A DNA stretch of 63,948 nucleotides, filler included, from Octopus bimaculoides (taxonomy: Eukaryota), in NCBI RefSeq assembly GCF_001194135.2. It is 6 parts of 5 records of this genome, joined end to end, with 100 filler letters (N's around TTAATTAATTAA, not from the genome) between each part and the next. Parts side by side here need not be neighbours in the genome. Positions count along the whole stretch, not along the records: positions 1 to 15,034 come from NC_068981.1; positions 15,135 to 20,432 come from NC_069000.1; positions 20,533 to 38,404 come from NC_068990.1; 3 more parts are not named here. One strand, 5' to 3'. This document shows positions 9,026 through 35,526 of the stretch, one piece after another (position 1 is the stretch's first letter; every line of letters starts with the position of its first letter). Below the pieces are notes generated by a model. The model ran no database searches. It was not told the origin of the DNA and was given only the letters and a program-made list of their open reading frames with translations. The position numbers and the translations under genes are program-made.

Positions 9026-9515
9026 GCCATAAATAAATTGCTCCAAAATTCTTTTCAATGAATTCTTTTTATCAGTTCATGCAGTGTCCTTGTAAACAAA
9101 CATAAAATTTCAAGCCAGCAAAAATGGAAGAATTTCTTTGAACTACTGGTAGTATTGACAAAAATTTAATATTACCATGTTGTAATAACCTTTTGTATTT
9201 CTCTTAGGCAAAGTCACAAAATTCTTGTAGCTGTGATACATGAGCTGCTTATACTTTTAAAACTATTTGAAAATTTTAATTTTACGATAATTGTTTCAAT
9301 ATGAAGTGTGCCCCACAACCAGTGCCAACTAGGTCCCTTTCAAATCTGGTTTTCAATCAGCTGAATATGTTCTTGCTGTTCGTTGTAGACAGTTAAAATT
9401 TGTGTTGAAGTACTCTTCACAAAATCGAATGACCTTTTTCATCAATCAGTGATTTTACATAACTAAGACTGAAGCTTACAATTGACGGATATTTGTCCTC
9501 ATCTTCTTTGTTGTT

Positions 9516-9558
9516 GACACGTTTCGGCTGATATACCCTCCAGCCTTCATCAGGTGTC
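9516..9558 (-). ncRNA. Second copy of HHR-1, probably disabled
   Basis: Reverse complement reads GACAC-CTGATGA-A-GGCTG..CAGCC-GAAAC-GTGTC, lacking the 3-nt cleavage triplet present in the plus copy. Confidence 0.6.
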
Positions 9559-9674
9559 TTGGGGGAAATTTCGAACCTGGGTTCTCATTCCTAAGTTATT
9601 TTTCGATGTTATTATTATTATTATTATTATTATTATTATTATTATTATTATTATTATTATTATTATTTCCTCAA

Positions 9675-9720
9675 GACACCTGATGAAGGCTGGAGGGTAT
9701 ATCAGCCGAAACGTTGTGTT
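9675..9720 (+). ncRNA. Minimal type-I hammerhead ribozyme motif (HHR-1)
   Basis: GACAC-CTGATGA-A-GGCTG(gagggtatat)CAGCC-GAAAC-GTT^-GTGTT: stem I GACAC/GTGTT, 5-bp stem II, palindromic AACGTT in place of stem III. Confidence 0.8.
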
Positions 9721-10196
9721 AACAACAAACAAGATGAGGACAAATATCCGTCAATTGTAAATAATGTAAATAATGTACATAATTCCTCATCTGTTAAATA
9801 TAGAACTAAGACAGAAGCATTAGTCAATATCTCAACTGTTTCAGTTGGAACAGTATTGCTATCCAAAATTTTACGTCGTATCCTCTGACCAGAAACATAA
9901 AGTATAATTTCAACATCTTTTCATTTCTAAGTAGTCATAGAAATTGCTTCTGTTAGGCCTTTAGCAAGCTTAGATTTAACCATTCGTGTAATCACAATTA
10001 TATTATGGCTCGTGGTAAATGAAAGTTTGGATCAAACAGTTTTAAGACTAATTTTGACGAACCGTCGAATGTCTTGAAACTTAATTTATGAGTAACATTA
10101 TGAATAGCAAAAGTGGCTCCTTTAGCGGTATCGAGAAGTTCTAATTCAATTATTTTTATGAATTTTTATGTAAAAAAAAAAAAAAGTATCTAGTTA

Positions 10197-10560
10197 GGCG
10201 CGGATGTATGGTAAGAAGCTTGTTTCTCAACCACATGGTTCCAGTTCACATCTTGGGCAAGTGGCTTCGCACGTCGTCAACGCACGAAACTCTCGAACCT
10301 TGAGTTACTCTGTTGCTTCTGCTAAATGTTAATAATATATATGTGTGTGTATCTGTGTCTGTCCCCGTCACCGCTTGACAACTGTTGTTTGTGTGTTTAT
10401 GTTCCAGTAACATAGCCGTTAATTAAAGAGAACGATAGTATAAGTACCGTGTTTTAAAGGAAAATAAATACTGGGGTCGATTCATTCGACTAAACTCTTT
10501 CAGGGTTGTGCACCAGCATGGCCGCAGTCAAATTGCTGAAACAAGTAAAAGATGAAAGAT
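10197..10560 (+). mobile_element. SINE family A, near full length, degenerate
   Basis: Head (tggtaagaagcttg..aaccacatggttcc), tail (ctggggtcgattcattcgactaa..ccagcatggccgcagtcaa..gaaacaagtaaaaga). Confidence 0.85.
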
Positions 10561-11156
10561 TAAATCTAAATTGTGATGAATTAGCGGTAAAACACGCTTT
10601 GTGCCTTTGAAATTCTAAATAGTCTTTCATACCCATTTTACTTCACTGTACCACAGAGAACTCGGCAAAGAAATGATCACATTTTTCTNNNNNNNNNNNN
10701 NNNNNNNNNNNNNNNNNNNNNNNNNNNNNNNNNNNNNNNNNNNNNNNNNNNNNNNNNNNNNNNNNNNNNNNNNNNNNNNNNNNNNNNNNNNNNNNNNNNN
10801 NNNNNNNNNNNNNNNNNNNNNNNNNNNNNNNNNNNNNNNNNNNNNNNNNNNNNNNNNNNNNNNNNNNNNNNNNNNNNNNNNNNNNNNNNNNNNNNNNNNN
10901 NNNNNNNNNNNNNNNNNNNNNNNNNNNNNNNNNNNNNNNNNNNNNNNNNNNNNNNNNNNNNNNNNNNNNNNNNNNNNNNNNNNNNNNNNNNNNNNNNNNN
11001 NNNNNNNNNNNNNNNNNNNNNNNNNNNNNNNNNNNNNNNNNNNNNNNNNNNNNNNNNNNNNNNNNNNNNNNNNNNNNNNNNNNNNNNNNNNNNNNNNNNN
11101 NNNNNNNNNNNNNNNNNNNNNNNNNNNNNNNNNNNNNNNNNNNNNNNNNNNNNNNA

Positions 11157-32365: not shown

Positions 32366-32564
32366 TGAGTGCGTGCGTGTATTCTTTTATTCCTTTCAAC
32401 CATCCGGTTGGGGTCACGCTGGAGCACCATCGTGGTTTTATTGCGTTATTTATGATTATCCTTCGGCCGATTTCCTCATGTTGTTGTGGTGGTGGTGGTG
32501 GTGGGGGGGGGGTCACATCACGATTCTTGTATGTACCTTTGTCTCTGTTCTTGTTCCGTTTGAC

Positions 32565-33345
32565 GTATGAGGGAGTTTGATTCTGCTGCCCTCATTTGTA
32601 CCTCATGCTGGGCCGTCGGTTTATTATGTATTGTAGAGAGGAAAATTCTACTTCCTTTTTGAAGACATCTGCGTCCACATTATATAGATTACTTGATTTC
32701 TGTAGCAGGGCATTGGAGAGCTGAGGGCCTTTGAAAGTTGATTATTGCAGTACCCGTTTCTGCGTTTACATGGAGTGGATAGTACCATTGGTACAATACA
32801 AAGGCGTCCAAGTCTGCCATTTCTATAACATTCGATGCCGAAATTAGGTATTATCCCTTCTAGAGTTTTCCATATGCAGATTATTACACATCCGTTGCGA
32901 CTTCGATCCAGGGAGTAAAGTCATAGTTTTTTCAGCCTCTCCCAGTAGCTCATCTGCTGCACTGTTTCAATCTTTTTCGCGTCGTGATGTTGGACTGCTT
33001 GAAGATCCGCGGTTAGTTTGGCACTATATAGTGATTATATTTGAGAGTAGTCCATGCGACTGAGGACAAAGGTCCTCCACAGGGTCAACATAAGGGCACC
33101 ATTGGCTGCAACTGCCGAAATTATGTCCTTAACAAAGTCATGCAGCCACTCTTCCAGTTTAGGAGGAATGCCATAGCCTCGCAGCTTATGACACGGTAGA
33201 CTGTGATCTACCCTATAAAATGCCTTTGCAAAGTGAAGCTATATCACACTGACATCTGAATGGTGAAGCAGTTGTTTCAACACTCAATCATAGTGCTGTA
33301 AGAGCTATGTGTGGCAGCTTCTTCTTAGACAGACGTCAGGCCGTC
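32565..33345 (-). pseudogene. CR1/L2-group LINE reverse transcriptase relic with a large internal deletion
   Basis: LLQHYD*VLKQ..SDVSVI*LHFAKAFYRVDH..HKLRGYGI..LEEWLHDF (RT motif for DFAKAFDKV) fused to C-terminal FVLSRMDY..MSYWERLKKL..YSLDR..IWKTLEGIIPNFGI..GPQL..AAESNSL. Confidence 0.8.
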
Positions 33346-33394
33346 AGTGTGCGTGCGAGTGTACATGCGCGCGTGTGTGTGTGTATGATTGAGC

Positions 33395-33580
33395 ATATAT
33401 GTGTCCACTATCATCGCTTTACAACCGGTGCTGGTGTGGTTACGTTCTCATAACTTAGCGTTCGGACAAAAGACAACAAAGCTCTTGCCGTCGATTCGTT
33501 CGACTAAAAAACTTCATCAAAGCGTTGCCCCATCATGGCCATAGTCTAATGACGGAAACAAATGAAACATAACCAATAAA
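33395..33580 (+). mobile_element. SINE family A tail
   Basis: catcgcttt.acaaccggtgctggtgtg..aacttagcg.ttcgg..gtcgattcgttcgactaa..catggcc. Confidence 0.75.
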
Positions 33581-35263
33581 AGGTACATACTTTTACATTG
33601 GCTATAATGCTGATAAATAGTCGTATACTGGGAGAAATATGTTCATGAATTCTTAGAATTTATCCCAGTTGCTTAAGGATGGATTTTTGAACTCATTCTA
33701 AATTTAGAGGTCATAATTAAAAAAATCTTTGAAAGCAGAAACACTGGACTCTGAAGTAGCCGCAACGCACAAACTCCCTGAATGTAAATGCATATTAACA
33801 TATGTGTGCATGAAGCACACATAAATATACACACATGTACATATATACAAACGTGCATGCATGCATACATACATAAACACACATGCACACACGCATACAC
33901 ACATGTATATATATGTGTATGGATATCATGATTCGATAATCATTACGTAATACATTTCTATGATATATTTTTTATTATTGTAAACAATTCTCTGAGGCCT
34001 AAAGTATGTAACGAACGCGCAAACGCACACACTCACAGACACATACAAATTCATATACAAAATCTGACGTCATCGTGGTGGTGGTGGTATAAAATGTCCT
34101 TAACTATAGTTCACTATGGAAAGATTATTTAGATAATATGTTATATTGTTTTAATCCAAATGAAGATAAAAATTGCATGTTGACACTGGTGGAGTCTAAT
34201 ACTATTCCCTTGTAAAATTTGATTTGGTCGAGCCATTTGAGAAAGAATAGAAAACAGACAAACAGAGAGACAAAGAGTTTATCATTTAGCGTCCGTCTCC
34301 AATGCTGTTGTAGTAGGTTGGGCAATTTAGTAGTAGGTGTCACGCCGGAGAGATGAAGCCTGGTTCAACTTTCCAGCTTACCAGCTCCTGTCAAGCGGCA
34401 TGGACGATGAATGTTGAATGATGACGATGATGATGTGATGAAGTTGATGATAATGATGAGGAGAGGGAGGAGTGGAGAGGAAGACTGTATATATGTATAT
34501 ATATATCAAAATAGAGAGGGAGAGGGGGAGAGAGGGAGAGATAATCACACACAGGCTACCACAAACAGGCACACAAACAAAATACACACATACAGAAGTT
34601 AGATAACCACATGCCTTCATGTAAACGCTCATGCATTGATACATACAAACACATTTACATACGTAAAGCGAAATAGACGTGCAAGGATAATATAAGTACA
34701 TTCATAGAGGCATCGAAACGTACAGTCATATCGGAAAATCAGAAAGCTATTGTTACAAGCCGGTTATTTTCAATTTCCTAATTGCAGCAACATACTGTCT
34801 ACTGCAATTATTCATGAATTGTAATGCAAAATAGTTCACAGCATATTTCATAAAGTTCATGACTTCAAAACTCGACTAAGAAAACGAATTCTTTTTTAAA
34901 ATTTCTTACTTTTACAATGCATTACAAATTTATTTCATTCAAAGTTTGAAGAATTGAATACGAAAGTGAGAATATAGACAAGACGCACGCACACACACAC
35001 ACACACACACACATATATATACACACAAACACAGGCACAGAGATACACACATGCGCACACAGGCACAAACATACGCACATGCGCACATATGCACAGACGA
35101 GCGTTCACATATACACAGACATGTATGTACGCGTGTGGAAACTACCTTCCTTCAGAGTTATATTCATAGATATCTATCACAATACTTTTATATATACGCG
35201 TATAGGAATTTATAATTGTATATATAAATGCGTATATAGTTTATATATATATTTATATATATA

Positions 35264-35526
35264 TACACCGGAGTAAGCACATAAATGTGAAAGAAGGTGG
35301 AAAAATGGGTACTCAGATACGAGAGGCAAAGTAATATGCTTTATTTAAAAGCAGCAAAAATATAACAAAAGCTGTTACTCAGAGTTTCACGTTCCCGTTT
35401 GTCGGACAGTTTTGTTAAAATAGTATAGATCGTTATTTCCGTTCTATTTTAACAAAAGTGTCCGACGATTGGGAACGTGAAACTCTGAGTAAAAGCTTTT
35501 GTTATATTTCTGCTGCTTTAAATAAA
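35264..35526. mobile_element. Non-autonomous fold-back element with ~84-bp inverted arms
   Basis: 35340-35423 and 35444-35526 are near reverse complements around a 20-nt loop; left boundary approximate. Confidence 0.8.
35451..35503 (+). ncRNA. Minimal hammerhead-like motif HHR-3 (U4C core variant); second copy on minus strand 35364-35416
   Basis: Two-copy consensus AACAAAACTGT-CCGACGA-ACG(ggaa)CGT-GAAAC-TCTGA-GTA^-ACAGCTTTTGTT; stem III is the quasi-palindrome ACTC-T-GAGT. Confidence 0.6.

What the first reader, a model, noticed from the sequence alone, without database searches (positions are those of the whole stretch)
9476..35526. System view: three unrelated mini-element families, each built around a minimal dimer-type hammerhead ribozyme
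Seen: three elements with no shared primary sequence outside the core (9675-9720, 19187-19228, 35451-35503) all fit [stem I]-CUGANGA-like-[stem II]-GAAAC-[palindrome]-NUH-[stem I'], with different but compensating stems. Two are fold-backs with a copy on each strand. PLE coding relics lie in the same window (6403-6833, probably 62918-63110). Established: Penelope-like elements carry minimal type-I hammerheads that cleave as dimers via a palindromic stem III. Inference: this genome hosts several abundant non-autonomous, PLE-mobilised ribozyme mini-elements (retrozyme-like), including non-canonical cores. I do not know of a description of these specific families, but cannot check that here.
Basis: partly seen in the sequence, partly recalled or inferred. 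Interest (0 to 1): 0.75.

Follow-up and report, generated by a model that had tools for sequence, protein, structure and literature searches.

The report
Penelope retrotransposon tips with hammerhead scars
The three ribozyme-like motifs are the tips of three different protein-coding Penelope-type jumping genes, a known layout rather than stand-alone mini-elements, but in one family about a fifth of copies have a small deletion exactly at the predicted cut site, likely a fossil of RNA self-cutting, and many short copies begin at a tRNA-like segment that likely serves as its promoter.

Summary
The hammerhead motifs are real; the 'non-autonomous, retrozyme-like mini-element' reading is not supported. 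Each motif lies downstream of a GIY-YIG/RT gene of a different Penelope-like (PLE) clade: A Poseidon, B Neptune-type, C Hydra. The window copies are 5'-truncated ends with the known inverted-pair and tail signature. Head-to-tail arrays are rare. The three lie on different contigs. Both window arms of C are damaged; C's family motif matches the published Hydra-2_Amil hammerhead except U4C and stem II.

Family A adds two features I did not find in print. (1) A tRNA-derived A/B-box segment sits between ORF end and ribozyme; 5' ends pile up at its start (about 11-fold hazard), and the 2.4-kb ORF has no T4 run, which suggests Pol III transcription. (2) 41 of 178 copies carry a deletion at the predicted cleavage site, mostly the same 3 nt, unlinked to any subfamily marker and independent between paired arms; this is likely RT jumping across cleaved RNA. 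B (A6U) and C (U4C) show no such scar. Cleavage and Pol III use are untested; RNA-seq was uninformative. The scan noted both features before on other DNA.

The parts
9476..9634 (-). Family A inverted arm (tailless pLTR of a Poseidon-clade PLE); hammerhead core starts at 9553; 3-nt deletion at the predicted cleavage site
   Evidence: same deletion class
9609..9667 (.). (ATT)n microsatellite, an internal part of the family A pLTR (between tRNA-like head and ribozyme); the head itself is truncated away in this copy
9665..9807 (+). Family A forward arm with tail; in tandem copies this sequence is the in-frame start of the Poseidon ORF
9675..9720 (+). Minimal type-I hammerhead A: canonical core, extra A after A9, 6-bp stem II, ACGU palindrome, predicted cut after 9715
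   Evidence: 58 identical copies among session loci
9465..9475 (+). Left copy of an 11-nt target-site duplication (one mismatch)
9808..9818 (+). Right copy of the target-site duplication
19166..19274 (+). Family B: 5'-truncated 3' end of a Neptune-type PLE, cut by an assembly gap
19189..19224 (+). Minimal hammerhead B with A6U, extra A, 4-bp stem II, weak 4-bp stem I, predicted cut after 19220
35266..35429 (-). Family C tail-bearing arm of a Hydra-clade PLE in (TA)n; hammerhead at 35372-35409 with U4C and a copy-specific G8A
35429..35532 (+). Family C inverted tailless arm; hammerhead 35458-35495 with mutated stems I and II
6403..6833 (+). Broken Neptune-type GIY-YIG relic of another family; not the partner of A, B or C
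62921..63109 (-). N-terminal relic of a Hydra-type PLE ORF on another contig (C5)

Best explanation
A, B and C are 5'-truncated ends (pseudo-LTRs) of three protein-coding Penelope-like retrotransposons of the Poseidon, Neptune-type and Hydra clades, each carrying a minimal hammerhead that is predicted to cut as a dimer. Shown: linkage to ORFs, two alternative 3' ends (tail / no tail), inverted pairs, fixed 5' start points in A and C, and deletions at A's predicted cut site. Inferred: the element's own RT starts inside the RNA at two sites and copies back to the RNA 5' end, which gives short solo copies and head-to-head pairs (mechanism from PMC11167929). Inferred for A: the RNA starts at a captured tRNA-derived Pol III promoter, and in a fifth or more of events the ribozyme has cut the template, so RT crosses the break using a 2-nt GU overlap and loses 3 nt. 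B and C, with A6U and U4C cores, likely cut slowly.
For: ORF linkage: ribozyme in sense downstream of the endonuclease in 26 of 30 (A), 11 of 25 (B), 7 of 25 (C, at 1.2-1.5 kb, near the flank limit) EN-selected loci, query loci included; L091 holds RT-EN-stop-UTR-ribozyme C; A's tail runs in frame into an 803-aa RT-EN ORF and L332 is ORF-pLTR-ORF-pLTR. 3' ends of A fall at 0 or about -25, usually one of each per pair. Inverted partners 71 of 159 (A), 34 of 70 (C). Ribozyme constraint: two B subfamilies differ at 2 of 36 ribozyme positions, both free (N7, H17), against 27 of 155 outside (only 4 B2 copies); C subfamilies vary at the loop-III centre, N7 and a U-A to U-G pair; coral Hydra-2_Amil has the same stems I and III with a different, fully paired stem II. 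tRNA head: 49 of 74 identical to a host tRNA-Ala, 48 to tRNA-Arg, scores 63 vs shuffle maximum 35. 5' ends at -12..+5 of the head: 21 of 37 after removing one misassigned copy and 14 of 31 in a second set, hazard ratio 10.8, p 3e-8. No T4 run in head-to-tail or in the 2409-nt ORF majority (shuffle means 2.8-4.3, P 0.01-0.03); Hydra ORFs have 6-7 per 1.2 kb. Scar: 18 of 87 tail-selected copies, 13-fold over the rest of the stretch, p 6e-12; 41 of 178 overall; no linked non-CpG marker in 131 tests; pairs with 0/1/2 deleted arms 25/13/3, as expected if independent, although arms share non-CpG variants (40 of 318 vs 3.2% at random; 7 of 65 in discordant pairs).
Against: No cleavage or Pol III assay. 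Deleted A copies have more CpG decay than intact ones (0.235 vs 0.150, p 3e-5) at equal non-CpG divergence, which leaves room for a post-insertion, methylation-linked or hairpin-linked DNA deletion. The tree test had little power (19 copies, 5 deleted). Few copies start at the cut site itself (2 of 94 within 1 nt). B (0 of 48) and C (0 of 43; three 1-nt gaps 2 nt downstream, probably subfamily alignment) show no scar. PMC11167929 found no RNA-seq reads ending at the PAc cut site and no need for cleavage in vitro. The head is not called a tRNA by ARAGORN (0 of 19 loci) or Rfam (0 in 5 loci). The T4 test is only modestly significant on an A-rich strand. A 5-bp inverted repeat at the head start could favour inversion joints there, though copies without an inverted arm also start there. 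RNAfold/cofold did not give the hammerhead dimer as the lowest-energy fold. B has almost no inverted pairs (1 of 70).
Confidence: 0.8

Rival explanations
1. One reading: three independent non-autonomous, retrozyme-like mini-element families that spread through their own short (possibly circular) RNAs.
For: Most copies are short and ORF-less; A and C have fixed 5' starts; high copy numbers. PMC7229834 and the 2026 preprint describe PLE-derived non-autonomous elements.
Against: Every family continues into an ORF; all three C loop variants occur in EN-linked copies; same-strand neighbours 5 of 159, 2 of 70, 3 of 70; no marker separates short from long copies in A.
Confidence: 0.07
2. Family A is a two-tier system: solo head-to-tail copies keep the A/B boxes, are re-transcribed by Pol III and act as true PLE-dependent SINE masters.
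For: Intact A and B boxes inside the copied unit, no T4 terminator, 5' ends at the head; 2 of 31 tail-selected head-reaching copies run far into the ORF.
Against: No short-copy-specific diagnostic change found; RT must start inside the first part of the ORF, and the sequence beyond the tail is missing from solo copies, so they may lack the protein-binding signal (inference from PMC11167929).
Confidence: 0.25
3. The deletion in A is a DNA-level hotspot (slippage next to the stem II hairpin or repair at a methylated CpG) and the ribozymes are passengers that do not cut in vivo; the fixed 5' starts are Pol II starts or RT stops.
For: More CpG decay in deleted copies; several other deletions fall in stem II; no sharp RNA ends in RNA-seq is uninformative; PAc cleavage was dispensable in vitro (PMC11167929).
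Against: Stronger slippage substrates next door (GTGT, AACAAC) delete far less often; other CpGs show no deletion peak; subfamily changes avoid constrained ribozyme positions.
Confidence: 0.3

Closest known systems
Minimal hammerheads of metazoan PLEs (Cervera and de la Pena 2014, PMC4209133; parts 1-2 of 4 read)
   Same: Type-I minimal fold, extra nucleotide after A9, palindromic 15.2-16.2, thousands of single truncated copies, opposite-strand pairs 100-700 bp apart.
   Different: U4C and A6U family cores, a tRNA-derived head and cut-site deletions are not mentioned in the parts read.
Poseidon_Ac / PAc of Anolis (Frangieh 2024, PMC11167929; parts 1-2 of 4 read) for family A
   Same: RT-EN ORF, ribozyme overlapping the ORF start, two RT start sites giving tail / no tail.
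   Different: A has a tRNA-like A/B-box segment before the ribozyme, no T4 run in the ORF, and deletions at the cut site; PAc showed no in vivo sign of cleavage.
Hydra-clade PLEs, Hydra-2_Amil and Hydra-1_Obim (Craig 2021, PMC8557442; passages, section 11, supplement searches) for family C
   Same: CxCX5C linker, (TA)n targets, hammerhead with the same stem I and stem III as Hydra-2_Amil.
   Different: U4C core and 3-bp stem II; not the same family as Hydra-1_Obim, whose ribozyme differs; family motifs not found in the supplement.
Neptune-clade PLEs (PMC8557442, passages) for family B
   Same: CX4CxxC linker before a C-terminal GIY-YIG, microsatellite-rich sites.
   Different: A6U core kept across two subfamilies; RT part not recovered, so the clade rests on linker and endonuclease.
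Metazoan non-LTR retrozymes (PMC7229834, passages; bioRxiv 10.64898/2026.07.22.740005, part 1 of 5) and schistosome SINE-like hammerhead repeats (PMC6765202, passages)
   Same: Type-I hammerhead, PLE link; Pol III promoter next to a hammerhead in the schistosome repeats.
   Different: Those are non-coding tandem arrays that make circles; here the units are ends of coding elements and arrays are rare.

Membership tests
EN+ Penelope-like elements | ORF with PLE-type RT and GIY-YIG endonuclease joined to the repeat | tested here: met
   A: 803-aa RT-EN frame; C: RT-EN in L091, L302; B: linker and EN only. Identified by motifs; Pfam gave no hit.
EN+ Penelope-like elements | pLTR in tandem or inverted arrangement with optional tail | tested here: met
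   A and C. B: inverted 1 of 70, tail not tested.
EN+ Penelope-like elements | Phylogenetic placement of RT in a named clade | not tested
   Clades assigned from linker motifs described in PMC8557442 and from recalled Poseidon motifs; no tree with references.
Minimal type-I hammerhead | Core plus stems I, II and palindromic stem III | tested here: met
   Family level for A, B, C; window copies of C damaged.
Minimal type-I hammerhead | Canonical U4 and A6 | tested here: not met
   B: position 6 is T in 53 of 56, never A (A in 3 of 100 listed). C: position 4 is C in 41 of 47. A is canonical.
Minimal type-I hammerhead | Change between lineages spares core and keeps pairing | tested here: met
   few independent lineages, no R-scape test.
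Minimal type-I hammerhead | Self-cleavage as dimer | not testable with these tools
   Only indirect: cut-site deletions in A.
Non-LTR retrozymes | Head-to-tail arrays of 150-450-nt non-coding monomers | tested here: not met
   Same-strand neighbour within 700 nt in 5 of 159, 2 of 70, 3 of 70 loci.
Non-LTR retrozymes | Non-autonomous (no ORF in the family) | tested here: not met
Non-LTR retrozymes | Abundant circular RNA | tested here: inconclusive
   Unstranded RNA-seq on family A only.
tRNA-derived SINE (family A) | tRNA-derived head with A and B boxes at the 5' end of copies | tested here: met
   absent from the window copy itself.
tRNA-derived SINE (family A) | Lineage independent of the coding partner | tested here: inconclusive
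   Same sequence is part of the coding element; no private markers seen.
tRNA-derived SINE (family A) | Pol III transcription | not testable with these tools
   Indirect only: no T4 run.

The most novel reading that the evidence does not exclude
Family A is a protein-coding Penelope element transcribed by RNA polymerase III from a captured tRNA, shedding SINE-like copies of its own tip, and its genomic copies record in vivo hammerhead cleavage: RT jumps across the cut and leaves a 3-nt scar in a fifth of arms, while the A6U and U4C ribozymes of B and C leave none. That would give a genome-only read-out of PLE ribozyme activity.
Probability: 0.4. Interest if true: 0.75.

Novelty: new variant of a known kind. 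Interest (0 to 1): 0.5.

Why it matters
The system view as written is textbook PLE biology. What matters is family A. The role of PLE hammerheads is stated as unclear (PMC8557442) and the one reconstituted PLE showed no in vivo sign of cleavage (PMC11167929); a cut-site scar that can be counted in any assembly would make that question testable across families and core variants. A Pol III promoter on a coding retroelement would also show a direct route from an autonomous PLE to a SINE-like derivative.

Tried and rejected
Rfam scan of the window: no hammerhead among the 150 of 308 rows shown, which were microsatellite-driven miRNA hits. The repeat finder was swamped by simple repeats. Pfam gave no useful hit on PLE peptides. 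ARAGORN and Rfam did not call the head a tRNA. The idea that C's ribozyme is antisense to its ORF was rejected by L091. The idea that short C copies are an ORF-free subfamily was rejected. My first head reference was cut from the wrong strand and gave nothing; one search timed out and was rerun. Lunse et al. 2017 (PMC5785218) is not held; I saw only its title, and it may already list U4C or A6U cores. Octopus tRNA-SINEs OK/OR1/OR2 are recalled only; a search found nothing, so the head could be one of them. Searches that found no description of a tRNA-headed PLE or of cut-site deletions; Repbase/Dfam could not be checked.
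Full report
Setting. The window is a pack of six stretches from a 2.34-Gb, microsatellite-rich animal genome, probably an octopus (inference from composition, from earlier notes and from likeness to published octopus Hydra elements; not determined here). 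A, B and C lie on contigs C1, C20 and C10.

Observation. A descriptor for the minimal type-I hammerhead found A (9675-9720) and B (19189-19224); shuffles gave a hit in 2 of 200. The named copy of C has broken stems and its partner has G8A, but the family motif is sound: 4-bp stem I extendable to about 12 bp with one bulge, core with C at position 4, 3-bp stem II with a GGAA loop, ACUC-N-GAGU palindrome. Exact pattern counts show hundreds to thousands of copies (lower bounds). The families share no significant sequence.

What they belong to. Walking upstream reached coding sequence each time. A: the end of a GIY-YIG domain, a stop, 30 nt, a tRNA-like segment, (AAT)n, ribozyme, tail. The tail runs in frame into an 803-aa RT-EN ORF and L332 shows the tandem unit, the layout of PAc in PMC11167929 (parts 1-2 of 4 read). 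B: a CX4CxxC linker and GIY-YIG 340-770 nt upstream, Neptune-type. C: RT, CxCX5C linker, EN, long UTR, ribozyme, (TA)n, the Hydra clade of PMC8557442 (section 11, passages and supplement searches seen). In loci picked by the endonuclease the ribozyme followed in sense in 26 of 30, 11 of 25 and 7 of 25 (many B and C misses have assembly gaps or end at the 1.5-kb flank). A copies end at the tail tip or about 25 nt before it, usually one of each per pair, and 39 of 70 have an inverted partner. Across position-ordered loci inverted partners occur in 71 of 159 (A), 1 of 70 (B), 34 of 70 (C) and same-strand neighbours in 5, 2 and 3 (some pairs counted from both arms). The window's A pair has an 11-nt target duplication. 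PMC4209133 (parts 1-2 of 4 read) already reports opposite-strand pairs, the extra nucleotide and truncated singles. So these are PLE ends, not retrozymes as defined in PMC7229834 (passages) and the 2026 preprint (part 1 of 5).

Are the ribozymes constrained? Copies within a family cannot show this, lineages can. B1 and B2 majorities (40 of 42 and 4 copies) differ at 2 of 36 ribozyme positions, N7 and H17, against 27 of 155 outside; U at position 6 is kept in both. C lineages vary at the loop-III centre (21/15/11 of 47), N7 and one pair that becomes U-G. The published coral Hydra-2_Amil motif has the same stems I and III, canonical U4 and a different paired stem II. PMC3088659 (passages) reports low but detectable activity for A6C and reduced activity for U4C; A6U was not in its text. 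Lunse 2017 could not be read.

The tRNA-like head of A. The 74-nt segment aligns to host tRNA-Ala (49 identities) and tRNA-Arg (48), far above shuffles, among 18 tRNA sequences from 17 loci, an incomplete set. Of 37 forward copies that reach it, 22 start at -12..+5 (21 after removing L204, which is an ORF copy with a deletion), 8 inside it, 7 beyond (29 shorter or unresolved copies and 4 at gaps set aside). In an independent tail-selected set 14 of 31 start there, 11 inside (5 at +6/+7), 6 beyond; hazard ratio 10.8 (63 of 94 copies ended earlier or were unresolved). Neither the head-to-tail unit nor the ORF majority has a T4 run (P 0.01-0.03); natural copies have 0.4 per kb against 7.3 in Hydra copies. 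I infer a Pol III start just before the head. C copies also mostly start within about 13 nt of stem I (ORF-linked copies show the upstream sequence exists), which I read as a transcription start; this is untested.

The cut-site deletion. The window's inverted A arm lacks 3 nt at the predicted cut. In copies chosen by the tail, 18 of 87 have a deletion there against 16 elsewhere in 105 nt (13-fold, p 6e-12); most are the same 3 nt, others 1, 2, 6 or 12 nt. In loci not chosen for an intact ribozyme it is 41 of 178, with no linked non-CpG variant, no clade on a weak tree, and independence between arms, though arms share lineage variants. The 3-nt loss is what a cDNA ending at the 5' end of the 3' product would give if it re-primed on the GU two bases before the cut (inference). 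Against: deleted copies show more CpG decay, only 2 of 94 copies start within 1 nt of the cut, and B and C show no scar. RNA-seq could not decide.

Relics. 6403-6833 is a Neptune-type endonuclease of another family; 62921-63109 is a Hydra-type N-terminus. Neither is the partner of A, B or C as far as tested.

Verdict. Observation mostly right, system interpretation wrong in its main claim. PLE membership about 0.95; Pol III start for A about 0.55; scar as RNA cleavage record about 0.6. I reached both ideas before consulting earlier notes (notes); the scan had noted them on other DNA, which is not independent proof. Not found in print in searches.

Noticed in passing
window 35346-35526: Sub-threshold Rfam match to 'Wolbachia sRNA 46' (35 bits, cut-off 65); probably just the family C fold-back.
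   Followed up: no
family B, window 19239-19274: A 36-nt stretch after the ribozyme is identical in both B subfamily majorities (partly by selection of copies); possible RT-binding signal.
   Followed up: no
window 12259-12395, 38695-38828, 60906-61042: Another dispersed repeat of about 135 nt, 85-91% alike; probably a common SINE.
   Followed up: no
window 63424-63876: Sequence after a TA run with a Helitron-like helicase fragment on the minus strand (63589-63876; label from recall, no Pfam hit).
   Followed up: no
L155, L188, L268, L057, L208: Single further hammerhead-like motifs with other stems, some B-related with canonical A6 or U4C; more PLE families for a covariation set.
   Followed up: no
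L292:4846-5427 (-): An A copy in which a deletion fuses the endonuclease frame through the head into the next ORF start.
   Followed up: no
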